This document shows, one piece after another, positions 8,485 to 20,834 of a stretch of 64,000 nucleotides of DNA. This DNA comes from Eubacteriales bacterium (GTDB lineage: Bacteria; Bacillota; Clostridia; Oscillospirales; RGIG577): contig JBMNPT010000004.1 of assembly GCA_050943735.1 (NCBI GenBank), positions 137,420 through 201,419 of the forward strand, read 5' to 3'. How positions within the stretch are numbered: the stretch's first letter is position 1; the number at the start of each line of letters is the position of its first letter. Made by a program: the position numbers and the translations under genes. The notes beneath the pieces are model-generated. The model was not told the DNA's origin, did not search any database, and was given only the letters and a program-made list of their open reading frames with translations.

Positions 8485-8594
8485 GCCGTCTTGCGAGTGT
8501 TCGCAAGAGTACACCTTTAGGAACACTTAAAAACTCCTTGTTTCTTTTGTTCGTAAAACATGAAATTTATTTTACAGATATATTCGTAAATATA

Positions 8595-8623
8595 TTGACT
8601 TTTATGAACGCTTGTGGTAGAAT
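8595..8623 (+). promoter_or_regulatory. Promoter of the serine recombinase gene
   Basis: TTGACT (8595-8600), 17 nt, TAGAAT (8618-8623). The GTG at 8614 used by the ORF track lies inside this promoter, so I reject it as the start. Confidence 0.6.
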
Positions 8624-8652
8624 ACGAACAGATAAAGAAAGGGGACGCAAGC

Positions 8653-9261
8653 GTGGATAATCGGACTTACTACTATGCCAGAGTATCAAGCAAGGAGCAA
8701 AACCTTGACCGCCAGATTGCCGCATTTAAGGCGCTTGGAGCGCAGGAACGGGAGATAATCACCGATAAGGAAAGCGGAAAAGACTTGAATCGAGCGGGAT
8801 ATATGGCGCTTAAAAATGCCATGCTCCGCAAGGGAGATACACTTGTTGTAAAATCTCTCGACAGACTGAGCCGCAATAAGTGCGACATAAAAAATGAATT
8901 GCAATTCTTTAAGGACAATGGAATCCGTTTGAAAGTCATTGACTTGCCTACTACCATGATGGAATTACCAGAGGGGCAGGAATGGGTTTTTGAAATGGTA
9001 AACAACATCTTAATTGAAGTGTTGGGAACGATTGCAGAACAGGAGCGGGAAACTATACGCAAGCGGCAAGCCGAGGGCATTGAAGCGGCAAAGCAGAACG
9101 GCAAAAAGTTAGGCCGCCCCGCGCTTACCTTCCCCTCAAATTGGAATGAAGTATATTCTGCTTGGAAAGCGGGAGAAATTACAGCAAAGACAGCTATGGA
9201 GCAAACCAACACTAAAAGAACCAGTTTTTATAAATTAGTCAGTATGACGGAAAACCAGTAA
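8653..9261 (+). CDS. Small serine recombinase (resolvase/invertase family)
   Basis: YYYARVSSKEQNLDRQ catalytic-Ser motif, DRLSRN, and a C-terminal GRP...HTH. I place the start at GTG 8653, which follows AAAGGGGA and is in frame with the track ORF 8614..9261. Confidence 0.85.
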   Translation: MDNRTYYYARVSSKEQNLDRQIAAFKALGAQEREIITDKESGKDLNRAGYMALKNAMLRKGDTLVVKSLDRLSRNKCDIKNELQFFKDNGIRLKVIDLPTTMMELPEGQEWVFEMVNNILIEVLGTIAEQERETIRKRQAEGIEAAKQNGKKLGRPALTFPSNWNEVYSAWKAGEITAKTAMEQTNTKRTSFYKLVSMTENQ

Positions 9262-9411: not shown

Positions 9412-9480
9412 TTAGCCGAAGTAGCGCTTCAGCAGACCCTCGAATGCCTTGCCGTGGCGGGCCTCGTCGCGAGCCATCTC
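9412..9480 (-). pseudogene. Displaced 3' fragment of a rubrerythrin gene (last ~22 codons plus stop)
   Basis: The reverse complement reads [22 protein letters not shown]. The intact gene at 20292-20834 ends [22 protein letters not shown]. Homology stops abruptly at 9480. Confidence 0.8.
9441..9480. repeat. attL direct repeat of the integrative element
   Basis: CGAATGCCTTGCCGTGGCGGGCCTCGTCGCGAGCCATCTC. It is 39/40 identical to 20321-20360 (G/A difference at 9454/20334). Confidence 0.8.
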
Positions 9481-9594
9481 ATCAGTATCTTCGCTGCGCT
9501 CGATACTGCGGGGGAACTTATCTTCCCCTGTTATGGTTATTATACAAGGAAAAGCACAGAGAATCAAGCATTTTTCTAACATCTTTTATTCATC

Positions 9595-9669
9595 GTGGAC
9601 ACTTCTTTTAGACAACTTCTAACATCTTTTTAAGTTCTCCAAATCAAGGCTTGGACAAGTTTTGGACAA
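9595..9669 (+). promoter_or_regulatory. attL-proximal arm-type repeats (TGGACAA/TGGACAC)
   Basis: GTGGACAC 9595-9602, TAGACAAC 9609-9616, TGGACAA 9652-9658 and 9663-9669. They share orientation with the attR-proximal copies. Confidence 0.5.
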
Positions 9670-9685
9670 TTTGGAGGTCTTTTTT

Positions 9686-10900
9686 ATGGCAAAATCGAAT
9701 GATGTGGGTGTTTATCAGCTTGATAACGGTATGTGGGGTTTTCGGTTCGTGATGGTCGTGGATGGCAAGCGAATCAGCCAAAGGAAATCCACAGATGAAC
9801 AAGGCAATAAGCTCACTACAAAGAATCAGGCAATCAAGGCGCGGCAAACGGCAATGGTTCAAGCCCGAACAGAGAGAGTCCAAAAGCAGAAAATCGCCCG
9901 CCGCAAGTTCAAGGAAGTGTACGCGGAGTTTTGCGAAAAGGGGCGTTCTGACCGCGCCTATCAGACAAAGCGCAAACAGGACAGCATTTGGGATAATCAC
10001 TTGTGCGCCCGTTTCGGCAATCGTTATGTGGATGAAATTAGCAGCGGAGAAGTCAATGACTATTTGACGGAGCTTTATTGTGTAGATGGCTATTCCCATC
10101 AATACACAGAAAGTTTTCTGAAAATGTTCTATCTGATTTTGGGACAGGCGTATTCCCGCAATTATCTTGAAGCAGATACCTATAACAAGCTGTGCGTGAA
10201 CAAAGACACAAAAATCCATATGCCAAAGCAGAAAACAGAGGACGATACCGACATTATAGCCTTTAGCCGTGATGAACTTGTGCTTTTGGATGAATATTTC
10301 AGAGGCACAAACGCAGAAACAGCATATTTATTGGGGCGATATTGCGGGCTGCGTATCAATGAGTGTTTCGGGCTGAAATGGACGAATGTGGATTTAGAGG
10401 CGGGGACGATTCTGATTGACCGTCAGATGCAGTATCAGGATGGGCTTATCAAACTGATAGCACCGAAAACCCGTAACTCCAAAAGGACAATCTTCATGTG
10501 TGACGCTCTGAAAGCACATCTTCAAAAACTGGCGGCGGAGCGGGAGCGGGACACGGCGGAATTTGCTGCTGTGCGGGAACAGAAACAGCGGTTCATTGAT
10601 GATTTGGACGGAAAGAAAATTTCCTCCACGGAGCTTGTGAACTGTCTGCCTGACGGGACGATTCAAACCGTTAATTCCATGAAATACCCCACGCGGGAAA
10701 TCAAAAACAAATTGGGTATCAACTTCAAATATCACTATTTGCGGCACACCTACGGAACACTTATGGCGGAAATGAATACCCCCACACATTTGCTCTGCAA
10801 TCAGATGGGGCATGGAAATATTCATGTGACGCAGCGGTATTATATTGCAATCTCCAAAAGCGGAATTGATGTGCTGAATAAAAACCTGAATCAACTATAA
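9686..10900 (+). CDS. Tyrosine integrase of the element
   Basis: Catalytic-domain motifs GLRINECFGLKW (Arg), HYLRHTYGT (HxxR) and GHGNIHVTQRYY (His...Tyr). I place the start at ATG 9686, 6 nt after GGAGG and in frame with track ORF 9662..10900. Confidence 0.85.
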   Translation: MAKSNDVGVYQLDNGMWGFRFVMVVDGKRISQRKSTDEQGNKLTTKNQAIKARQTAMVQARTERVQKQKIARRKFKEVYAEFCEKGRSDRAYQTKRKQDSIWDNHLCARFGNRYVDEISSGEVNDYLTELYCVDGYSHQYTESFLKMFYLILGQAYSRNYLEADTYNKLCVNKDTKIHMPKQKTEDDTDIIAFSRDELVLLDEYFRGTNAETAYLLGRYCGLRINECFGLKWTNVDLEAGTILIDRQMQYQDGLIKLIAPKTRNSKRTIFMCDALKAHLQKLAAERERDTAEFAAVREQKQRFIDDLDGKKISSTELVNCLPDGTIQTVNSMKYPTREIKNKLGINFKYHYLRHTYGTLMAEMNTPTHLLCNQMGHGNIHVTQRYYIAISKSGIDVLNKNLNQL

Positions 10901-10938: not shown

Positions 10939-12072
10939 TTAGTACATTTCATTGATTTTAGATACAAAGGACTTGAATTCTTCCACCACGGGAGCGGGAG
11001 AAAGAATTTTTGCCCGTCTGCCAAAGCCGCAAATCCACGAAAAGAACTGTTCGCTGACTTTGATTTCTGCGGTGATAGTAAAATGGTGTTCATCAAACTT
11101 GCTGTAAACTGCGCCCTTTCTGCCGAAACGGTCAAGCACGGTATTCATAGCCGAATTGATAAAACGGATAACAACGCGCTGTGTATCGCCGCCGAACATG
11201 GAAAAGGACTGTTGCGCGTATTTGTTGATTTCGATTGCGGCGGCGGCCTCCTGTCCCTCTCTTGGTTCACCTAACCGGCGCACATCGGCCATGCGGTCAA
11301 CGCGGTATGTTCTGATTGCTTGGTACTTATCATCAAAGCCCATCAGATAATAATTCCCGTCATTTATCAAAAGGCGGTACGGGCTGACAATGTACCACTC
11401 GCCCTTGCGTCCCTCTCTTGGCTTGTCCAGATTGTCGATGGTGTATTCCTGATACTTGAAGCGGATTTTTTCAGGTTCGTGCTTCTGGCCGTCCAAAACT
11501 ATGCTCATGGCATCGTTGATTGTACTGATATTGTTTAGGACACTCCGGTTATTGGTCTTTACACGGTCGGTTAAAAGCGCATCGTGGCGGATAGTCTTTG
11601 CCTGTTTCTCGCTGACAAACTCCGATACCACATTGACAAGGCGCTCCGCCTGTCCCTGCGCGATAAATTTTGCGGAATAGACACACTCCGCCAAAAGGCG
11701 AATATCATTCAAATCAAAATGCCGCTGCCGCACATAAAAGCCTTTTTTGCTCTTGTCATAGATAACGGTCTTTTCGTTGTCGGCATCATCGGCGGCAAGG
11801 GCTTCTTCCGCTTCATCAATAGTGCTTTCAGGGTTCTCCATCAGCCACAAAACCTTGTTGATGTCCTCAATATCCCTGTAAATGGAGCGGCGTTCTGCGG
11901 AAATTCCACAGTCCTCCAAAAAGGAAATAATGTCATAGGCGGTGACAGCATTATTTTCGTCCGTATACTTCAAAAGATATTGAAGCACAACATAGGGTTT
12001 CAGCTTTTGGTTAGGCTTTTTCCCGTGTTCTGCTAAATCGCCTTTTATTGGTTGGCCTACTTTTTGTGCCAT
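10939..12072 (-). CDS. wHTH-WYL-domain transcriptional regulator (PafBC/BrxR/CapW-like architecture)
   Basis: N-terminal wHTH (YVVLQYLLKYTDENNAVTAYDIISFLEDCGISAERRSIYRDIEDIN). WYL region WYIVSPYRLLINDGNYYLMGFDDKYQAIRTYRVDRM, followed by a C-terminal extension. Start at ATG 12072 after AAGGGGGTG. Confidence 0.75.
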   Translation of the reverse strand: MAQKVGQPIKGDLAEHGKKPNQKLKPYVVLQYLLKYTDENNAVTAYDIISFLEDCGISAERRSIYRDIEDINKVLWLMENPESTIDEAEEALAADDADNEKTVIYDKSKKGFYVRQRHFDLNDIRLLAECVYSAKFIAQGQAERLVNVVSEFVSEKQAKTIRHDALLTDRVKTNNRSVLNNISTINDAMSIVLDGQKHEPEKIRFKYQEYTIDNLDKPREGRKGEWYIVSPYRLLINDGNYYLMGFDDKYQAIRTYRVDRMADVRRLGEPREGQEAAAAIEINKYAQQSFSMFGGDTQRVVIRFINSAMNTVLDRFGRKGAVYSKFDEHHFTITAEIKVSEQFFSWICGFGRRAKILSPAPVVEEFKSFVSKINEMY

Positions 12073-12155
12073 GCGCGCCGCACCCCCTTTTTTCCATTCT
12101 ACCACGCCAAAAGCAAAAAGAAAAGCAACGGAATATCAAGCGACAATCCGATGCT

Positions 12156-12356
12156 TCAATCTTCAATGTATTCTGCAATATCTTCCAGTTTGCAATTTAG
12201 TATCTTGCAAAGCTGATTGATGGTATAGGTGCTGACATTTCCGTTTTTCCTCAGCCGGTCGAGCTGCCCGCTGCTGATTTGGTATTCCTTTATGAGCTTG
12301 TATTGGGATATTTCTTTGTCTTTCATGGTTTGCCATAGCTTATCAAATACAATCAT
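12156..12356 (-). CDS. XRE-family HTH regulator (66 aa)
   Basis: MIVFDKLWQTMKDKEISQYKLIKEYQISSGQLDRLRKNGNVSTYTINQLCKILNCKLEDI. AAGGAG RBS before ATG 12356. It is divergent from cassette gene A. Confidence 0.75.
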   Translation of the reverse strand: MIVFDKLWQTMKDKEISQYKLIKEYQISSGQLDRLRKNGNVSTYTINQLCKILNCKLEDIAEYIED

Positions 12357-12409
12357 GCAGACAACTCCTTGCATAGTATCTGCATTTAGAGTATAATCAC
12401 GCCCTTTCG

Positions 12410-12438
12410 TTGACAATTGCCCATAAACGGGCTATAAT
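12410..12438 (+). promoter_or_regulatory. Cassette promoter copy 1 (consensus sigma-70)
   Basis: TTGACA (12410-12415), 17 nt (ATTGCCCATAAACGGGC), TATAAT (12433-12438). The -35 overlaps a minus-strand TTGTCA (12411-12416) that could serve the XRE gene. Confidence 0.7.
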
Positions 12439-12511
12439 TCTAAAGAATAGAGAACTATAGGCAAATAGCAGGGGCACAGTCAAAGAGATATTCTGCAAAG
12501 GAGTAATTATA

Positions 12512-13048
12512 ATGGGAATATTTAATCTGATTGTAAACGCAATCAATAAGGCGGACCGCAAAAAAGAAGCTGCGTTTATAGAAGAATTTAGTCCATACGG
12601 AGAAATCGTCAAAGACCCCAGTACCAGATTTGAAACGGACACACTCTATATTAAAAAGCACGGCAAGATATTGCGAAAACTGTTGATTGCAAAACCTGTG
12701 GAATATGTGCACACGAAGAAAGAGCCGGATAAATTAGTTTATACCTCAGCTACAGTAGGCGGTATTACAACAGGTGGATTTCATGTCCAAAGCGGAAACA
12801 CATCATATTATACGTCTAATTCCGGAAAATTTGCGGTGGCATATTGTCCCAATAATAGCGTTCACGGCAGTTATGCAATAGAAATATTCCTATCTGAACA
12901 AATATACAATGCGGCAAAGAAATCCGGACTTTCAGGATTATTTGAAAACAAGTACAGAAGTAAAGATAAACGCCATCGATATGGAATAAATACAAAGCGA
13001 AAATCGAAAGAAGAATGCGATAAACTCATAAACTGGCTTGCAAATTAG
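12512..13048 (+). CDS. Cassette gene A, hypothetical soluble protein (178 aa)
   Basis: AAGGAG RBS, and an own promoter and terminator. I recognise no family and see no TM segment. Confidence 0.6.
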   Translation: MGIFNLIVNAINKADRKKEAAFIEEFSPYGEIVKDPSTRFETDTLYIKKHGKILRKLLIAKPVEYVHTKKEPDKLVYTSATVGGITTGGFHVQSGNTSYYTSNSGKFAVAYCPNNSVHGSYAIEIFLSEQIYNAAKKSGLSGLFENKYRSKDKRHRYGINTKRKSKEECDKLINWLAN

Positions 13049-13085
13049 TCAGTAGCTAACTGTTGCTTATACGATACATAATGGA

Positions 13086-13116
13086 GGAGCGAGGCGTTTG
13101 CCCCGCTCCTTTTCTG
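13086..13116 (+). terminator. Terminator of cassette A
   Basis: GGAGCG.GG/CC.CGCTCC stem followed by TTTTCT. Confidence 0.6.
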
Positions 13117-13167
13117 TCATATCAACTGCGCATGGCCTTGTATGGCCGCCTCTATCTTTTGGGTTCG
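13117..13167 (-). pseudogene. Remnant of a tyrosine recombinase 3' end (17 codons plus stop)
   Basis: The reverse complement reads RTQKIEAAIQGHAQLI*. The intact gene at 15274 ends EPQRIEAAIQGHAQLI*. Four of the last seven codons differ only synonymously (cat/gcg/ttg/ata against cac/gca/tta/att). Confidence 0.75.
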
Positions 13168-13196
13168 TTGACAATCGCCCATAAACGGGCTATACT
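13168..13196 (+). promoter_or_regulatory. Cassette promoter copy 2
   Basis: TTGACA, 17 nt (ATCGCCCATAAACGGGC), TATACT. It is part of a 62-bp block (13133-13194) identical to 14013-14074. Confidence 0.7.
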
Positions 13197-13234
13197 GTGA
13201 GCATCAAAGGCAATTTAATAAAAACAAAAGCGGG

Positions 13235-13951
13235 GTGCAAAGAGTGGAAGAAGTATTTAACCGTTCAGTTGGTACGCTTTGGCCATATGACAAAATAATT
13301 ATTTGTGATGATGGAATCAGGTGGGTCTCGCAAGATGCAGAAAGAGTGGTTCACTGTAAGCTTATCCCGTATTCATCTATTGCAAACCTTAAAATTGTAT
13401 CAACACCATTACTTGGTTTTTATTTGCGAATAATTACGACAAATTCTGTAAAAAAGGATTTTGATATAAAAAAAGAAGACAAAGACAGATTGAAAAATAC
13501 GATTGCGGACATTCAGAAGCAAAAGGCGTTTGGTTCAAAGGGGAATCCGGTCGAGGAGAGCGAAGAATATGCATTTGTTCCTTTTGAATCGTTGACTCTT
13601 GAAGAAATGTTGTCCTTGCCCAGGAACGATTTGTCCGAAGAAGAAAAAGCAGCAGTCATAAAGAAAATAAAAGATGCATGGCTGGCAAAAAAGATTAGCG
13701 AATTAACCTATAAAGAGCTCACAGCAGAATATGAAGGAAGAGTCCTTTCTGACTTCGAAAGAGAAATGGCGCTGCGAGTGGATTTATTTCATGTAAAAAG
13801 TGAGTATGAAAACATGCTCCGGGAAAAACAGGGAAAAAAAGACCGAAATTCAATCATAAAAGGCGCTGTTGTTGGTGGTGTTCTTGCAGGCCCCACAGGA
13901 GCGGTTGTCGGCGCGATTGTTGGGAAAAACAAGGCAGACAACAATAAATGA
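13235..13951 (+). CDS. Cassette gene B, PH-like / SHOCT-like / C-terminal glycine-zipper protein (238 aa; start GTG 13235 or 13244)
   Basis: The N-terminus WPYDKIIICDDGIRWVS...IPYSSIANLKIV looks bacterial-PH-like. The C-terminus KGAVVGGVLAGPTGAVVGAIVGKNK is a glycine zipper (nt ~13861-13925). Confidence 0.6.
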   Translation: MQRVEEVFNRSVGTLWPYDKIIICDDGIRWVSQDAERVVHCKLIPYSSIANLKIVSTPLLGFYLRIITTNSVKKDFDIKKEDKDRLKNTIADIQKQKAFGSKGNPVEESEEYAFVPFESLTLEEMLSLPRNDLSEEEKAAVIKKIKDAWLAKKISELTYKELTAEYEGRVLSDFEREMALRVDLFHVKSEYENMLREKQGKKDRNSIIKGAVVGGVLAGPTGAVVGAIVGKNKADNNK

Positions 13952-13957
13952 TAGGTG

Positions 13958-13995
13958 AACAACAGGAGCGGGACGCGTGTTCCGCTCCTGTTGTT
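13958..13995 (+). terminator. Terminator-like hairpin of cassette B
   Basis: Perfect 14-bp stem AACAACAGGAGCGG/CCGCTCCTGTTGTT. The downstream T-tract is weak. Confidence 0.55.
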
Positions 13996-13996
13996 A

Positions 13997-14047
13997 TCAA
14001 ATTAACTGTGCGTGGCCTTGTATGGCCGCCTCTATCTTTTGGGTTCG
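13997..14047 (-). pseudogene. Second remnant of a tyrosine recombinase 3' end
   Basis: TCAAATTAACTGTGCGTGGCCTTGTATGGCCGC is identical to 15274-15306 of the intact gene. It then diverges into the conserved promoter block. Confidence 0.75.
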
Positions 14048-14076
14048 TTGACAATCGCCCATAAACGGGCTATAAT
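14048..14076 (+). promoter_or_regulatory. Cassette promoter copy 3 (consensus sigma-70)
   Basis: TTGACA (14048-14053), 17 nt, TATAAT (14071-14076). Confidence 0.7.
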
Positions 14077-14127
14077 ATTTGCAATATTTCTTTACTTCGG
14101 TTAACTCTCTACAAAAGTCCGAAAGGA

Positions 14128-15240
14128 ATGATAGTTTTGTTTGAAACTCTTAGCTCAAAAGATGCCCGCAACTGTTGGACATTTACAGATGATGGCATTG
14201 CTGTTTATGCAATGGATGTCATTGGTCATGCAGAGAGACGCAAAATGTTTATTCATTACGGCGCTATTTCCTCGATTACGCTGAATTTTGCGGGTGTTTT
14301 GAACATCAATAAAAACTTTGCTATGCTACAGCTCGGAAAGGCAGATAAAGACACAGCAAAGGTGATGATGTCTTTTATCAAGGAGAAATCAAAAACTGCA
14401 TCTTCAGAGATTATCTACATTCAGGGATTTCCTTCGTTTGAAAGCAATGTAGAAAAGTGTGGTTCGAGCTTTGCAAAAAGTCAATATATCGCTCGAAATA
14501 CAACGATGCTCACAAAGAAAATCGGAAATCAGGAAGCCCTTGAATTTTATGACCCCGAAGTACAGGAATTTTTGAAAAAATATCCCGGTGAAAATGCAAT
14601 TGTCAACAAAGTGCTTGGGCTGTCTGTTAAAGAATTTAATGATAGTGAAAACCTTAAAAGTATGCTTTGTGGCGGCGGTGTAAGGCTTTTAATGTGTTGG
14701 GATGACCAGTACTCCAAGTATAAAACACAAAGCTGTGTTGTTTTCACTTCCAAAATGATTTTCTTACATAATGCCGCTAAAAATGAGAATTCGTTCTATT
14801 TTGTTCCTAATCTCCACGGTTTTATTAGCCGTATGAGTTCTGTTGTAATTAAAGAAAGTACCTATCATTCAAAACAGAGCAGCGTTACCGGCAGCGCAGT
14901 TGCGGGCGGTATCATTGCGGGGCCTGTAGGCGCTTTAGTCGGTGCTGTGGCTGCGTCTAATTCCAATGCACACGGCGGTAGAACAGTTGCCGGACCTAAA
15001 CAGGATTTAGGTAACCGCGCTGTGCATGTTCGCGGTCTTGTCGGAGTTGAGCGTGGCACAGTTAGCACAATTTATGCAGCAAAGGGTAGCGGATGCCCTG
15101 CGGTAAACCATGCCCATGCAAGTGGATGTGATTACTCCGAATTAGAGTATATTAACGGTATCCCCGAAGAAAAGTATAATAGGTTTGCAAAATACATTGC
15201 CGATTTGTGCCAAAGCATGGATGCCGCACACAATAAATAA
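14128..15240 (+). CDS. Cassette gene C, PH-like / glycine-zipper protein (370 aa; alternative TTG start at 14137)
   Basis: KQSSVTGSAVAGGIIAGPVGALVGAVAASNS (nt ~14887-14955) closely parallels the motif in the 307-aa protein at 7468. PH-like stretches (WTFTDDGIAVYAM, VVFTSKMIFLHN) are present. Confidence 0.6.
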   Translation: MIVLFETLSSKDARNCWTFTDDGIAVYAMDVIGHAERRKMFIHYGAISSITLNFAGVLNINKNFAMLQLGKADKDTAKVMMSFIKEKSKTASSEIIYIQGFPSFESNVEKCGSSFAKSQYIARNTTMLTKKIGNQEALEFYDPEVQEFLKKYPGENAIVNKVLGLSVKEFNDSENLKSMLCGGGVRLLMCWDDQYSKYKTQSCVVFTSKMIFLHNAAKNENSFYFVPNLHGFISRMSSVVIKESTYHSKQSSVTGSAVAGGIIAGPVGALVGAVAASNSNAHGGRTVAGPKQDLGNRAVHVRGLVGVERGTVSTIYAAKGSGCPAVNHAHASGCDYSELEYINGIPEEKYNRFAKYIADLCQSMDAAHNK

Positions 15241-15243
15241 GCT

Positions 15244-15272
15244 AAAAGGGAGCCTTTAGGCTCCCTTTTTCT
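15244..15272. terminator. Bidirectional terminator between cassette C and the small recombinase gene
   Basis: AAAAGGGAGCC/GGCTCCCTTTT stem flanked by an A-tract and a T-tract. Confidence 0.7.
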
Positions 15273-15273
15273 A

Positions 15274-15837
15274 TCAAATTAACTGTGCGTGGCCTTGTAT
15301 GGCCGCTTCAATCCTCTGCGGCTCAATTCCGATATACCGTTGTGTGGTGGCGGCAGAGCTGTGCTGTAAAAGCCGCTGAACAAGGGCAATATCGTAACCG
15401 TTGGCCTTGTAAATCTCCGTGGCATACCACTTGCGGAAGCTGTGTGTGCTGATACCCTCAAAGCCTAAATAATCACAGACGATTGCAAGCTGCTTTTGTA
15501 TCGCCCGTTCCGTGATGGGAAACATCAATTCCGTCTTGCCTATCCCGCTCCGCAGACAGTAATTCTCTATGTACTGCTGAATAACGAGCGGGACAGTAAA
15601 CATACGGCGCTTGCCTGTCTTTTGCTCCACGATTTCAAGTCGGTATCGCTCACCGTCCCGTACAATATCGCAAAGGCGCAGACGCAGAATATCGCTGACA
15701 CGCAAGCCCAAATTCCCCTCCAACACAAGGGCGGTTGCGATACGCTCATTTGGGCGGCAGCCGCAAAAGCCTTGCTTCATGGTTTGAATTATTTCCTTGT
15801 ATTGTTCCGTGGTGAGAGCCTTTGTTTTCTTGTTCAT
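15274..15837 (-). CDS. Minimal tyrosine recombinase (187 aa, catalytic domain only)
   Basis: GLRVSDILRLRLCDI (Arg), STHSFRKWYATEIY (HxxR) and LLQHSSAATTQRYIG (His...Tyr). Start at ATG 15837, 5 nt after GGAGG; the track TTG at 15849 is rejected. Confidence 0.85.
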   Translation of the reverse strand: MNKKTKALTTEQYKEIIQTMKQGFCGCRPNERIATALVLEGNLGLRVSDILRLRLCDIVRDGERYRLEIVEQKTGKRRMFTVPLVIQQYIENYCLRSGIGKTELMFPITERAIQKQLAIVCDYLGFEGISTHSFRKWYATEIYKANGYDIALVQRLLQHSSAATTQRYIGIEPQRIEAAIQGHAQLI

Positions 15838-16005
15838 GCTTGCCTCCAAAAGTCATAAAGTTCGTATTTTGAGCGGTGAACTGTTCGTATGTTTGCGGCC
15901 GCCGCAGACAATCCGCAGAAATACAGGGTTTTGGTGTTCGTAAAATTCAAATTTTAGGAACTTTCCCCGCCGCCCCCCTATTTCAGAGGGCGGCGGGGTT
16001 TCCGT

Positions 16006-16284
16006 TTAGTAGGAAACAGAGAAGCGGCGGGAGCTGACAGGCTTGGTGAAGTCCTTGTAGAGTTCGCCGTAAAGCCGTTTGAATGTGGTGCTGTCAAATC
16101 GATTGCTGATGATGTTGGTGTAGCGGACGATGTAAGCACCGGCGGTCAGTTCTTCGGTGTTCTGTCTGACCATTTCTTCTTTGATGGCCTCGCGGATGGC
16201 ATCGGCCTTGGCCTTTGCCTTGGCAGCCAAATCATCATAGTTGTTCATGGCCTCAATCATGGAAATCATTTCGTTCTTGCTCAT
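16006..16284 (-). CDS. Hypothetical protein (92 aa), element backbone
   Basis: Clean ORF with a GGAGAA RBS and a coiled-coil-like N-terminus. No family recognised. Confidence 0.5.
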   Translation of the reverse strand: MSKNEMISMIEAMNNYDDLAAKAKAKADAIREAIKEEMVRQNTEELTAGAYIVRYTNIISNRFDSTTFKRLYGELYKDFTKPVSSRRFSVSY

Positions 16285-19837: not shown

Positions 19838-20153
19838 CTTGATACTCTCCTTTTTTGTTTTTGTTTTTTGTGGTTCATCTCTTTTGTGATTTTAGTATAC
19901 CAAAATTTTTTGACCGAGGTGTCGTTCTAATGTGACACATACACTTTTTTGAAAAGAAAAAACACAGTCTTTTCGACTGTGTTGTAAGTGGGGCGAACGG
20001 GAGCGGCCGCCGCATGTATCAATGATGCTTAAAAGATGTTAACGGGATGTTCGTATTTTCATTGAAAGTAGTTCGATAGTTGTAAAAAGTCTATGAATAG
20101 ATGCTATAAACCTGTTGTTCTCTGGCTTTTGGTAGAGTATGATGTAATCGTCA

Positions 20154-20228
20154 ATGGACAAGTTTTGATGGACAACTTTGATGGTTCTTTGCCTCCGTAA
20201 AAAGAGGTAATGGACAAGAAATGGACAA
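20154..20228 (+). promoter_or_regulatory. attR-proximal arm-type repeats (4 x ATGGACAA)
   Basis: ATGGACAA at 20154, 20168, 20210 and 20221, all direct, 90-170 bp left of the attR core. Confidence 0.55.
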
Positions 20229-20291
20229 TCCGAATAAAAGAAACGGGGAAACAGGTTTCCCCGTTTCCCCGTTGGAAATGCTTGATTTATC

Positions 20292-20834
20292 TTACTTGAA
20301 GTAACGTGCCAGCAGGCCTTCGAATGCCTTGCCATGGCGGGCCTCGTCGCGAGCCATCTCGTGAACGGTGTCGTGGATGGCGTCCAGATTGGCAGCCTTC
20401 GCACGCTTTGCCAGATCAAACTTGCCGGCAGTAGCACCATTCTCAGCTTCCACACGCATTTCCAGATTCTTCTTGGTAGAGTCGGTCACAACTTCACCCA
20501 GCAGTTCGGCAAACTTAGCAGCGTGCTCAGCTTCTTCCCAAGCAGCCTTCTCCCAGTACAGGCCGATTTCAGGATAGCCTTCTCTGTGAGCTACGCGAGC
20601 CATGGCCAGATACATACCTACTTCGGTGCACTCGCCCTGGAAATTGGCTCTCAGATCTTCCATAATATCCTGGCTGGAACCCTGTGCCACACCTACCACA
20701 TGCTCAGCCGCCCAGCTCATTTCGCCAGCCTGCTCTACAAACTTAGAAGCCGGAGCCTTGCACTGAGGACATGCTTCGGGAGCGCTGTCACCTTCATGAA
20801 CGTATCCACACACACTGCAAACGAATTTTTTCAT
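20292..20834 (-). CDS. rbr: Reverse rubrerythrin (N-terminal rubredoxin-like Cys4 domain plus ferritin-like domain)
   Basis: [10 protein letters not shown]...CPQCKAP at the N-terminus and diiron motifs EEAEHAAKF and [11 protein letters not shown]. The last ~10 codons are supplied by the inserted element. Confidence 0.85.
20321..20360. repeat. attR direct repeat
   Basis: 39/40 identical to 9441-9480. The sequence to its right is the rubrerythrin body. Confidence 0.8.

What the first reader, a model, noticed from the sequence alone, without database searches (positions are those of the whole stretch)
12406..15837. Cassette array: each cargo gene has the same consensus promoter and is bounded by a copy of the 3' end of the adjacent minimal tyrosine recombinase gene
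SEEN: Three consecutive plus-strand genes (A 12512, B 13235, C 14128) each have their own terminator and their own copy of one promoter, TTGACAAT(T/C)GCCCATAAACGGGC-TATAAT/TATACT, at 12410, 13168 and 14048. The units for B and C begin with a 62-bp block that is 100% identical (13133-13194 = 14013-14074). The first 17 bp of that block, TGGCCTTGTATGGCCGC, occur a third time at 15290-15306, inside the 3' end of the 187-aa tyrosine recombinase gene.

In all three places the 16 nt to the left encode the recombinase C-terminus plus its stop (..QGHAQLI*). The copy at 13117 does so with four synonymous codon changes. It therefore descends from a diverged, once-functional homolog rather than a recent local duplication. 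Each copy sits immediately after a terminator hairpin, so the repeating unit is [terminator | recombinase tail | 17-bp core | promoter | variable ORF]. The core contains a GGCC-N6-GGCC dyad (GCGTGGCC TTGTAT GGCCGCCT), which is the geometry of tyrosine-recombinase core sites.

INFERENCE: This is what repeated site-specific insertion of circular cassettes would produce. The att site would overlap the 3' end of the recombinase gene. Each cassette would bring a replacement gene tail, a promoter and a terminator. B would be 880 bp and C 1277 bp. The logic resembles an integron, but the site is in the recombinase 3' end, every cassette is self-promoted, and the recombinase is a catalytic-domain-only protein. 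I know of no described system with this layout.

ALTERNATIVE: Tandem accretion of related small elements, followed by deletion of all but one recombinase gene.
Basis: partly seen in the sequence, partly recalled or inferred. Interest (0 to 1): 0.85.

Follow-up and report, generated by a model that had tools for sequence, protein, structure and literature searches.

The report
Three-gene array in a mobile-element cargo slot
The repeats are real, but they look like recombination scars in the variable cargo slot of a small integrative element of gut Clostridia. They do not look like a new integron-like cassette system run by the neighbouring mini-recombinase.

Summary
**Observation: confirmed.**
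- Three consensus promoters, three terminators and a 62-bp identical block are all present.
- The rec gene 3' end occurs three times, one copy with four synonymous changes.

**Context**
- The array fills the variable slot of a ~10.7-kb integrative element. Its order is integrase, WYL regulator, XRE, slot, 187-aa Xer-like recombinase (rec).
- The element is inserted in the 3' end of a rubrerythrin gene.
- In 108 related loci the slot holds 0 to 7 genes. Of 138 cargo ORFs, 113 are distinct clusters, many of them restriction-modification or other defence genes. 32 slots are empty.

**Interpretation: only partly supported**
- Rec-tail scars occur in 3 of about 189 loci.
- The GGCC-N6-GGCC dyad is a codon accident of this allele.
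- Synonymous sites in the tail are not constrained.
- Breakpoints scatter from about -90 to +56 relative to the rec stop.
- The arm+promoter junction and the operator promoter were found only in this lineage.
- Rec has its own conserved four-motif site (inverted pair plus two direct TACGAAC copies) just upstream of its gene, laid out like the TnpI/IRS site of Tn4430. No such motif lies at the cassette junctions.
- A sibling allele carries B alone (L196/L197). Its junctions lie inside the promoter repeat and at a 5-nt terminator microhomology, not at the core.

**Best reading:** accretion of cargo modules from sibling elements, then remodelling by short homology. Rec is probably a resolvase.

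The parts
9430..9480 (.). Left att repeat of the host element: displaced copy of the rubrerythrin gene 3' end (fragment ORF 9412-9582, minus strand)
   Evidence: 51-nt repeat, 94% identical to 20310-20360. The fragment translates to ...[22 protein letters not shown], against the intact gene's ...[22 protein letters not shown].
9662..10900 (+). Element integrase (412 aa)
   Evidence: PF00589 plus Phage_int_SAM_3. It holds the same position in relatives.
10939..12105 (-). WYL/WCX transcriptional regulator, the conserved right flank of the slot
   Evidence: PF13280 and PF25583, PADLOC WYL models. Found downstream of rec in 108 related loci.
12156..12356 (-). XRE/HTH_26 repressor-like gene, divergent from promoter P1
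   Evidence: PF13443, E = 8e-17. In relatives the XRE gene travels with the cargo module.
12406..12438 (+). Promoter P1 (33-nt shared unit; GCCC-N6-GGGC palindrome between -35 and -10)
   Evidence: That the palindrome is the XRE operator is inferred.
12512..13048 (+). Cargo gene A (178 aa, no family match)
   Evidence: Exact copies occur in L011 and L012. Weak similarity to C.
13083..13113 (.). Terminator hairpin of A
   Evidence: -25.8 kcal/mol, z = -3.7.
13117..13164 (-). Rec-tail scar 1 (48 nt; TQKIEAAIQGHAQLI*)
   Evidence: Four synonymous differences in the last 16 nt. Also present in L011, L012 and L195.
13164..13196 (+). Promoter P2
13235..13951 (+). Cargo gene B (238 aa; PH-like N-terminus, C-terminal glycine zipper)
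   Evidence: Relatives carry PF27000 PH_gly_zipper. Weak Gly-zipper matches. It is the only cargo in L196 and L197.
13958..13995 (.). Terminator hairpin of B
   Evidence: 17-nt arms, 94% complementary. -32.3 kcal/mol, z = -7.5.
13997..14044 (-). Rec-tail scar 2 (48 nt; last 33 nt identical to the resident rec)
14044..14076 (+). Promoter P3
14128..15240 (+). Cargo gene C (370 aa; PH_gly_zipper family)
   Evidence: PF27000 on record for the product. Gly-zipper segment similar to B, E = 8e-8.
15244..15269 (.). Bidirectional terminator between C and rec
15274..15837 (-). 187-aa Xer-like tyrosine recombinase (rec), catalytic domain only
   Evidence: PF00589 over residues 7-171. Weak Xer and integron-integrase matches far below cut-off. 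Nearest solved structures are XerA, XerH and XerD. 6666 homologs.
15860..15961 (-). Candidate recombination/resolution site of rec: inverted pair GTTCCTAAAATTTGAATTTTACGAAC (15936-15961) plus two direct TACGAAC copies (15883-15889, 15860-15866)
   Evidence: Conserved at the same positions in 150 of 160 loci. That it is the rec site is inferred.
16006..16284 (-). Conserved 92-aa gene upstream of rec (element backbone)
   Evidence: Present in all related contexts. PHROG 6244.
20310..20360 (.). Right att repeat, inside the intact rubrerythrin gene (20292-20834, minus strand)

Best explanation
**What the locus is.** It is the variable cargo slot of a ~10.7-kb integrative element of an Oscillospiraceae-like gut Clostridium. 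The element is inserted in the 3' end of a rubrerythrin gene. In this family the slot lies between a mini Xer-like recombinase gene and a WYL regulator, and it is a hotspot of gene turnover, largely of defence genes.

**What it holds here.** There are three self-contained transcription units. They encode distantly related PH-like/glycine-zipper membrane proteins. Each unit sits under a copy of one lineage-specific promoter whose palindrome is probably the operator of the adjacent XRE repressor.

**How B and C got there (inferred).** They were stacked by accretion. Cargo modules from sibling elements arrived with their own rec tail and terminator, and were joined inside the last ~45 nt of the rec gene. 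Each displaced tail stayed behind as a scar. The scar+promoter linker arose once and was then copied.

**How the array changes afterwards.** It is remodelled by recombination at short homologies: promoter copies, tail copies and terminator stems. This produces alleles such as 'B only'.

**What rec does (inferred).** It is most likely a TnpI-like resolvase that acts on a four-motif site just upstream of its own gene, not on the scars.

**Shown versus inferred.** Shown: the anatomy, the family-wide variability, the allelic states, the junction positions and the conserved upstream motif array. Inferred: the order of events, the enzymology, the operator role and the resolvase role.
For: - **Element limits and att scar:**
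- **Slot variability:** the same rec protein sits next to 5 different cargoes. Gaps run from 0 to 7.2 kb, 32 of 108 slots are empty, and 113 clusters come from 138 ORFs. Cargo includes restriction-modification and other defence families.
- **Other module boundaries:** elsewhere they lie at the terminator end (+48 to +54) and at the XRE stop.
- **Crossovers inside the rec body and mosaic tails:**
- **Origin of the scars:** they derive from other functional rec alleles.
- **Promoter/operator and arm junction found only in this lineage:**
- **A, B and C are distant relatives:**
- **Sibling allele XRE-P-B-rec:** its left junction is inside the promoter. Its terminator is a hybrid, C-type for 14 nt and then B-type, switching at GGAGC.
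- **Decayed allele A-linker-B:** it is joined to the element's right end and has a G-to-A change in the core.
- **Rec upstream site:**. Its layout matches the Tn4430 IRS as described in PMC2847244.
- **Precedent:** the accretion/CIME route is described in PMC5704250.
Against: - The first formation of the linker is unexplained. It joins rec position -45/-48 to 4 nt upstream of the -35.
- Scars in two independent arrays (this window and L073) start at the same codon, and in L081 within 6-9 nt of it. Random breakage does not predict this.
- The homologies that would have to be used (17-33 nt core/tail, 33 nt promoter) are short for RecA-type recombination.
- One family crossover maps sharply to between -34 and -31.
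- The direction of change between the array and the B-only allele rests on terminator anatomy only.
- No experiment links rec to the upstream motifs. They could instead be operators of another protein.
Confidence: 0.55

Rival explanations
1. The 187-aa recombinase inserts and excises circular, self-promoted cassettes at a core site (GGCC-N6-GGCC) that overlaps its own 3' end. This would make it an integron analogue.
For: - Scar anatomy: a diverged arm, an identical core and a replaced tail.
- The scars recur at the same place in three lineages.
- The adjacent recombinase has intact catalytic residues (read from the sequence).
- The slot is hypervariable, with empty alleles.
Against: - The dyad is absent from other alleles, for example GCAGCCATTCAGAACCAC.
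- Synonymous sites in the tail are not constrained.
- Only 3 of about 189 loci carry scars.
- The first cassette has no site on its outer side.
- The conserved rec-associated motif array is upstream of the gene and absent from the junctions.
- The junctions of the B-only allele are off the core.
- The core is already decaying in L195.
- The junction was not found in the IMG/VR or JGI metagenome scans.
Confidence: 0.1
2. B and C are non-autonomous integrative modules, like CIMEs or IMEXs. A different tyrosine integrase, acting in trans, inserted them into an attB in the rec 3' end. Each module carries a replacement tail.
For: - The scar has the same anatomy as the element's own att scar in the rubrerythrin gene: a displaced gene end, an identical centre and diverged flanks.
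- The scars share a left end at -45/-48.
- Accretion at att sites in gene 3' ends is a documented route (PMC5704250).
Against: - No integrase with this target was identified.
- No full-size element was seen inserted in a rec tail in about 189 loci.
- The cassettes carry an operator matched to the local XRE.
- The L081 scar may extend further upstream as a decayed pseudogene.
- The deletion allele is off the core.
Confidence: 0.2
3. Purely local origin. The segment from the promoter to rec position -48 was duplicated in tandem. The gene copies then diverged in place, while gene conversion kept the linkers identical.
For: - A tandem duplication with those end points produces exactly the linker seen (read from the sequence).
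- The linkers are 100% identical over 62 nt.
- A, B and C are distant relatives.
Against: - The cargo proteins are under 25-40% identical and the terminators are unrelated, while the linkers are identical.
- The tails differ by synonymous changes typical of other alleles.
- B occurs as the sole cargo elsewhere.
Confidence: 0.1
4. Assembly artefact. Alternative single-cargo alleles from mixed strains were chained into one array.
For: The repeats of 33-62 nt are long enough to confuse short-k assemblers, and Logan unitigs break at them.
Against: - The arm sequence exists only at the junctions, and independent samples read through it from A.
- A SPAdes contig spans A, the linker and B.
Confidence: 0.03

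Closest known systems
Variable cargo (defence) hotspots between conserved genes of phages, satellites and integrative elements (for example the P2/P4 hotspots, PMC9122126); WYL/BrxR-type regulators next to defence genes (PMC9122601)
   Same: - A fixed position between conserved backbone genes.
- Extreme cargo diversity, including restriction-modification and Abi-like genes.
- A WYL regulator alongside.
- Cargo exchanged between otherwise near-identical elements.
   Different: - A mini tyrosine recombinase gene forms one flank.
- The slot is occasionally multi-unit, with rec-tail scars and copied promoters.
- The hosts are Oscillospiraceae, Lachnospiraceae and related gut Clostridia.
Tandem accretion of integrative elements and CIMEs at an att site in the 3' end of a target gene (ICESt1-type; reviewed in PMC5704250)
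   Same: Modules are separated by repeated copies of the 3' end of one gene. Each insertion regenerates an intact gene. Decayed partners lack recombination genes.
   Different: - The target gene is itself a recombinase gene inside another mobile element.
- The modules are single transcription units of 0.9-1.3 kb.
- No cognate integrase is known.
- The observed deletion allele is not att-to-att.
Integrons (IntI, attI, attC cassettes; defence cassettes in 10.1101/2024.07.02.601686)
   Same: A recombinase gene sits next to an array of small, often defence-type, single-gene units.
   Different: - Rec is not an IntI.
- There are no attC hairpins.
- The site would lie at the 3' end rather than upstream.
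- Every unit has its own promoter and terminator.
- Arrays are rare, and junctions are not at one nucleotide.
[quoted passage not shown]
   Same: A tyrosine recombinase gene is preceded by a ~100-bp site. The site has two inverted motifs (spacer about 4-6 bp) and two more copies of the same motif in direct repeat.
   Different: - Rec is 187 aa and lacks an N-terminal domain, whereas TnpI is longer (284 aa from my own knowledge).
- The element is integrative, not a Tn3-family transposon.
- No activity has been tested.
- Sequence relatedness to TnpI was not tested.
Xer recombinases and IMEX arrays at dif
   Same: The rec catalytic domain is nearest to XerA, XerH and XerD. IMEXs are non-autonomous DNAs that stack at a recombinase site and regenerate it.
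   Different: All Xer models score far below their cut-offs. The dif-like inverted pair lies upstream of rec, not at the scars.

Membership tests
Integron | IntI-type integrase | tested here: not met
   TIGR02249 scores 38.9 bits against a cut-off of 265. NF011946 scores 22.9 against 435. The protein is 187 aa with the catalytic domain only.
Integron | attC sites (imperfect palindromes that fold) bounding each cassette | tested here: not met
   The tail/core/arm segment folds no better than shuffles, z = -0.68. The boundaries are copies of the rec gene end.
Integron | Promoterless cassettes expressed from a common Pc; attI upstream of intI | tested here: not met
   Each unit has a 11-12/12 consensus promoter and its own terminator. 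The repeats lie at the 3' end of rec.
Tyrosine recombinase (PF00589) | Catalytic domain with R-K-H-R-H/W-Y | tested here: met
   PF00589, E = 1.2e-16. R46, K73, H132, R135, H159 and Y168 are read from the sequence. H159 and Y168 are invariant in 154 alleles.
TnpI/IRS-like resolution system | Site next to the recombinase gene with an inverted core pair plus two directly repeated accessory motifs sharing one motif | tested here: met
   - GTTCSTA-N-TACGAAC occurs at 15936-15961 and TACGAAC at 15883 and 15860.
- The heptamer piles up at -140 to -100 and -60 to -40 in 169 loci and is not enriched elsewhere.
- 150 of 160 loci have the inverted pair.
- The layout was compared with PMC2847244.
TnpI/IRS-like resolution system | The recombinase binds these motifs and resolves directly repeated sites | not testable with these tools
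   This needs binding and recombination assays.
Accretion at a gene 3'-end att site (ICE/IME/CIME) | Direct repeats of the target-gene 3' end flank each module, and the target gene is regenerated | tested here: met
   L073 and L081 show the same.
Accretion at a gene 3'-end att site (ICE/IME/CIME) | An integrase whose attB is that gene end; att-to-att excision of modules | tested here: inconclusive
   - No such integrase or full-size element was found in about 189 loci.
- The only deletion allele found is not att-to-att.
- Circular forms cannot be tested here.
Defence/cargo hotspot of a mobile element | Conserved flanks with diverse, frequently exchanged cargo enriched in defence genes | tested here: met
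Xer/dif | XerC/D/A/H/S-type protein with an N-terminal core-binding domain; 28-bp dif at the scars | tested here: not met
   The best Xer model scores 78 bits against a cut-off of 220. There is no N-terminal domain. No inverted pair lies at the junctions.

The most novel reading that the evidence does not exclude
The last ~45 nt of the mini-recombinase gene are a genuine attachment site. Small self-promoted cargo units carrying a replacement tail are inserted there site-specifically, by rec itself with relaxed specificity or by a partner integrase. That would make this widespread family of gut-Clostridia elements a Gram-positive, integron-like platform for collecting defence or membrane-effector genes.
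Probability: 0.15. Interest if true: 0.85.

Novelty: new variant of a known kind. Interest (0 to 1): 0.42.

Why it matters
- The element family is very common in gut Clostridia. It has 6666 rec homologs, most on short, fragmented contigs.
- Its slot holds an extremely diverse, mostly unannotated gene pool that includes restriction-modification and other defence genes. It is therefore a practical place to look for new defence or membrane-effector genes.
- The three allelic states found here ('B only', 'A-B-C' and a decayed 'A-B') show how such slots grow and shrink.
- The mini-recombinase with its conserved four-motif site is a compact candidate resolution system that could be tested directly.
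- The integron-like reading would be a real surprise if it were true, but the evidence here makes it unlikely.

Tried and rejected
1. **Exact-protein look-ups.** Rec, B and C gave nothing. Only A, and later close homologs, were on record.
2. **Arm+promoter junction pattern.** No hits in IMG/VR or JGI metagenomes.
3. **A fixed crossover at -34/-33.** A thresholded boundary scan suggested it. It was rejected on inspection. L150 and L171 already diverge from L110 at about -85, and the tails are themselves mosaic. Only one event maps sharply.
4. **Nucleotide constraint in the tail.** None was found.
5. **Other repeated boundary elements in multi-gene slots.** The repeats found were inside coding paralogs.
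6. **Rec motif at the junction.** Similarity of the arm to the TACGAAC-ACCAAAA motif, and of the core to the rubrerythrin att core, was noticed by eye. Both are short and were judged not significant. The rec-tail origin of the arm explains the arm better.
7. **A longer pseudogene scar in L081.** The evidence is borderline, z = 2.8.
8. **Family searches for A, B and C.** PADLOC and NCBIfam gave no match for A or C and only a far-sub-cut-off one for B; PHROGs gave nothing for A and only unknown-function or weak families for B and C.
9. **Literature searches.** None found a described system with this layout.
10. **Structure prediction of the cargo proteins.** Not attempted, because they have too few homologs.

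Full report
**1.

- The 17-bp core occurs exactly three times in the window, at 13133, 14013 and 15290. Shuffles expect 0.23.
- The 29-bp promoter occurs three times, at 12410, 13168 and 14048. Shuffles expect 0. The three copies are the best promoter matches in the region, at 12/12, 11/12 and 12/12.
- 13133-13194 equals 14013-14074. Copy spacing is 880 and 1277 bp.
- A, B and C are + strand ORFs. Each ends in a stable hairpin, with z-scores of -3.7, -7.5 and -4.2.
- Rec (15274-15837, minus strand) is a 187-aa protein made of the tyrosine-recombinase catalytic domain alone. All catalytic residues can be read from the sequence.
- Both internal copies of the rec end translate to TQKIEAAIQGHAQLI*. 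The copy at 13117 carries four synonymous changes.
- One correction. The 15 nt between the core and the promoter are also rec-derived. They match natural alleles of the 'PQKIE' type at 12/15, which only 1 of 2000 random 15-mers reaches. Each scar is therefore 45-48 nt.
- Unitigs and contigs from other samples reproduce the junction from A into the linker, the C unit and C next to rec. The array is not an artefact.

**2. The setting**

- A 51-nt repeat links 9430-9480 to 20310-20360. A displaced rubrerythrin C-terminus lies at 9412-9582. Together they show a ~10.7-kb element integrated in the 3' end of the rubrerythrin gene.
- The element's order is: integrase (9662-10900), WYL/WCX regulator, XRE, the array, rec, a conserved 92-aa gene, a second HTH gene, and small genes of unknown function.
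- Rec homologs are very numerous: 6666 at E <= 1e-10, mostly on short contigs.
- I retrieved 79 loci from GTDB genomes, mostly Oscillospiraceae with some Lachnospiraceae and other families. I retrieved 80 more from metagenomes and 30 from exact-protein look-ups.
- All show the same backbone. In L001 the element is 9.4 kb and splits a GGGtGRT-family gene.

**3. The slot is hypervariable**

- One identical rec protein (P0084) sits next to five different cargoes.
- In the 108 loci that hold both rec and WYL, the gap runs from about 0 to 7.2 kb. 32 slots are empty, with rec, a terminator and the WYL promoter directly adjacent. The others carry 1 to 7 genes.
- The 138 cargo ORFs fall into 113 clusters.
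- Cargo includes BglII, HindVP and ScaI endonucleases, C5 and N6 methylases, AAA_15/AAA_21 ATPases, Type ISP and helicase proteins, SHOCT proteins and Ig-like surface proteins.
- This is a cargo hotspot rich in defence genes beside a WYL regulator. The association is known for BrxR-type regulators (PMC9122601) and for hotspots of phages and satellites (PMC9122126).

**4. The family does not behave like a site-specific cassette system**

- *Scars are rare.* A search with every rec tail against every locus found scars only in this window, L073 and L081. That is 3 of about 189 loci.
- *The ordinary module has other boundaries.* In the P0084 group the exchanged unit is cargo plus promoter plus XRE. 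It runs from the far end of a shared terminator (+48 to +54 after the rec stop) to the XRE stop or second terminator. No rec-tail copy lies at the outer side.
- *Breakpoints are spread out.* They occur inside the rec body (L111/L153, L077/L085), from about -90 to -22, at the stop, and at +27 and +48 to +56.
- *The apparent -34/-33 cluster is not real.* It reflects where the conserved 'PQRIE' codons give way to an intrinsically variable tail. L150 and L171 already differ from L110 at about -85, and the L148 tail is itself mosaic. Only one crossover maps sharply, between -34 and -31 (L192).
- *The proposed core is not conserved.* The GGCC-N6-GGCC dyad is absent from other alleles. Third-codon-position entropy in the tail (1.24-1.38 bits) equals that of the rest of the gene. 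Nothing constrains the DNA beyond the protein.
- *The junction is confined to this lineage.* The arm+promoter junction and the promoter with its GCCC-N6-GGGC palindrome occur only here.

**5. Rec has its own conserved site elsewhere**

- Upstream of rec, almost every family member has an inverted pair, GTTCGTA(TAA)-N-(TTA)TACGAAC. The arms are 10-11 nt with 4-6 nt between them.
- Two further direct copies of ACGAAC(TT) follow, just before the ribosome-binding site.
- The heptamer piles up at -140 to -100 and at -60 to -40 in 169 loci. Elsewhere in 1.8 Mb it is not enriched.
- 150 of 160 loci have the inverted pair.
- In this window the site lies at 15860-15961. No copy lies in 12400-15300.
- The layout is that of the 116-bp IRS of Tn4430: a core of IR1-IR2 with a 4-bp spacer, plus accessory motifs DR1-DR2 that share one motif, next to tnpI (PMC2847244).
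- Similar mini-recombinases are frequent on Firmicutes plasmids and in phages.
- I infer that rec is a resolvase for the circular or multimeric form of the element and regulates itself at this site. This is inference. The motifs could instead bind another protein.

**6. Allelic states of this very locus**

- *B alone (L196 and L197, two samples).* These carry integrase-WYL-XRE-promoter-B'-rec, with no A and no C. The flanks are 97-100% identical to the window and B' is 94.7% identical.
  - The left junction lies inside the promoter. P1's upstream context is joined to a P2-type promoter.
  - The right junction lies inside the terminator. Reading from the rec stop, the first 14 nt are C-type (TAGAAAAAGGGAGC) and the rest is B-type, switching at GGAGC.
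  - The hybrid hairpin has lost half of B's outer stem, so it looks derived.
  - The simplest reading is loss of A by recombination between promoter copies and loss of C by a microhomology deletion between the terminators. Neither junction is at the 17-bp core.
- *Decayed A-linker-B (L195, a different host background).* It carries A-linker-B joined directly to the element's right end. That is a ~6.2-kb deletion removing C, rec and the backbone. Its linker has a G-to-A change in the core. The scar therefore drifts like neutral DNA.

**7. What still favours something site-specific**

- The scars begin at nearly the same codon: -45/-48 here, -45 in L073 and -39 in L081. L081 may extend further as a decayed pseudogene, but that evidence is only z = 2.8.
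- The anatomy (diverged arm, identical centre, replaced gene end) is the same as the element's own att scar in the rubrerythrin gene. It also matches accretion at att sites in gene 3' ends (PMC5704250).
- A site-specific first event by an unidentified integrase is therefore a live rival. I rate rec acting at its own tail as unlikely.

**8. Cargo**

- B and C belong to the PH_gly_zipper family, PF27000 in the precomputed annotations.
- B and C share the glycine-zipper segment (E = 8e-8). A resembles C weakly.
- No PADLOC or NCBIfam model matches A or C, B has only a far-sub-cut-off NCBIfam hit, and PHROGs returns just unknown-function or weak families for B and C.
- I propose that they are small membrane effectors kept off by the XRE repressor. 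This is untested.

**9. Verdict**

- The sequence observation is correct and interesting as anatomy.
- The mechanism best supported is accretion of cargo modules from sibling elements in a hotspot, followed by remodelling at short homologies. The neighbouring mini-recombinase most likely acts as a TnpI-like resolvase at its own upstream site.
- The integron-like reading is not excluded, but it now has low probability.

Noticed in passing
window 15860-15961 (and 100-140 nt upstream of rec in L001-L194): A conserved four-copy TACGAAC motif array lies directly upstream of the mini-recombinase gene. It has one inverted pair overlapping a TATAAT, then two direct copies. The layout resembles the Tn4430 TnpI IRS.
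   Followed up: yes
window 9412-9582, 9430-9480 and 20292-20834, 20310-20360: These are the element boundaries: a 51-nt direct repeat in the rubrerythrin gene 3' end and a displaced 23-codon gene tail. The element is about 10.7 kb.
   Followed up: partly
window ~9640-9670 and 20148-20235: Clusters of (T)GGACAA repeats sit near both ends of the element, for example TCAATGGACAAGTTTTGATGGACAAC...TAATGGACAAGAAATGGACAATCC. They could be arm-type binding sites of the 412-aa integrase.
   Followed up: no
window 8549-8555, 8623-8629 and 8614-9261: A serine recombinase (resolvase) gene lies just outside the element. Two inverted TACGAAC heptamers flank its start. This may be chance.
   Followed up: no
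L196 2860-2960, L197 810-910: A sibling allele has B as its only cargo. Its terminator is a hybrid of the window's C-type and B-type hairpins, switching at GGAGC.
   Followed up: yes
L195 1480-1837: A decayed element in another host (rubrerythrin 85% identical). A-linker-B is fused to the element's right end. C, rec and the backbone are missing. The scar core has a G-to-A change.
   Followed up: partly
L081 8762-11092 and 11791-14745: Two large cargo proteins are built of 69-nt (23-aa) tandem repeat units. A possibly longer decayed rec remnant lies between them (11450-11640).
   Followed up: partly
L019, L021, L022, L024, L026-L028, L031, L033, L034, L039, L077, L085 and others: These are empty-slot alleles. 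The rec stop, one terminator and the WYL promoter are directly adjacent, and there is no XRE gene. The XRE therefore belongs to the cargo module.
   Followed up: partly
rec codons 178-187 across 154 alleles: The last ten residues alternate between invariant positions (A179, I180, H183, L186) and highly variable ones (178, 181, 182, 185, 187). Tails are mosaic between alleles. A tail type ending in HAYM(I/L) goes with cargo on the same strand as rec (BglII-type restriction-modification).
   Followed up: partly
window 13133-13158 and 14012-14039: The terminator scan flags the core plus the T-rich arm as a weak + strand terminator. The fold is no better than shuffles (z = -0.68).
   Followed up: yes
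L025 3-302: A second, partial rec copy lies 7.7 kb upstream of the main one. This suggests two related elements side by side.
   Followed up: no
Most contigs that carry rec are under 2 kb and stop near the slot. This fits strain-level variation or repeats that break assemblies there.
   Followed up: no
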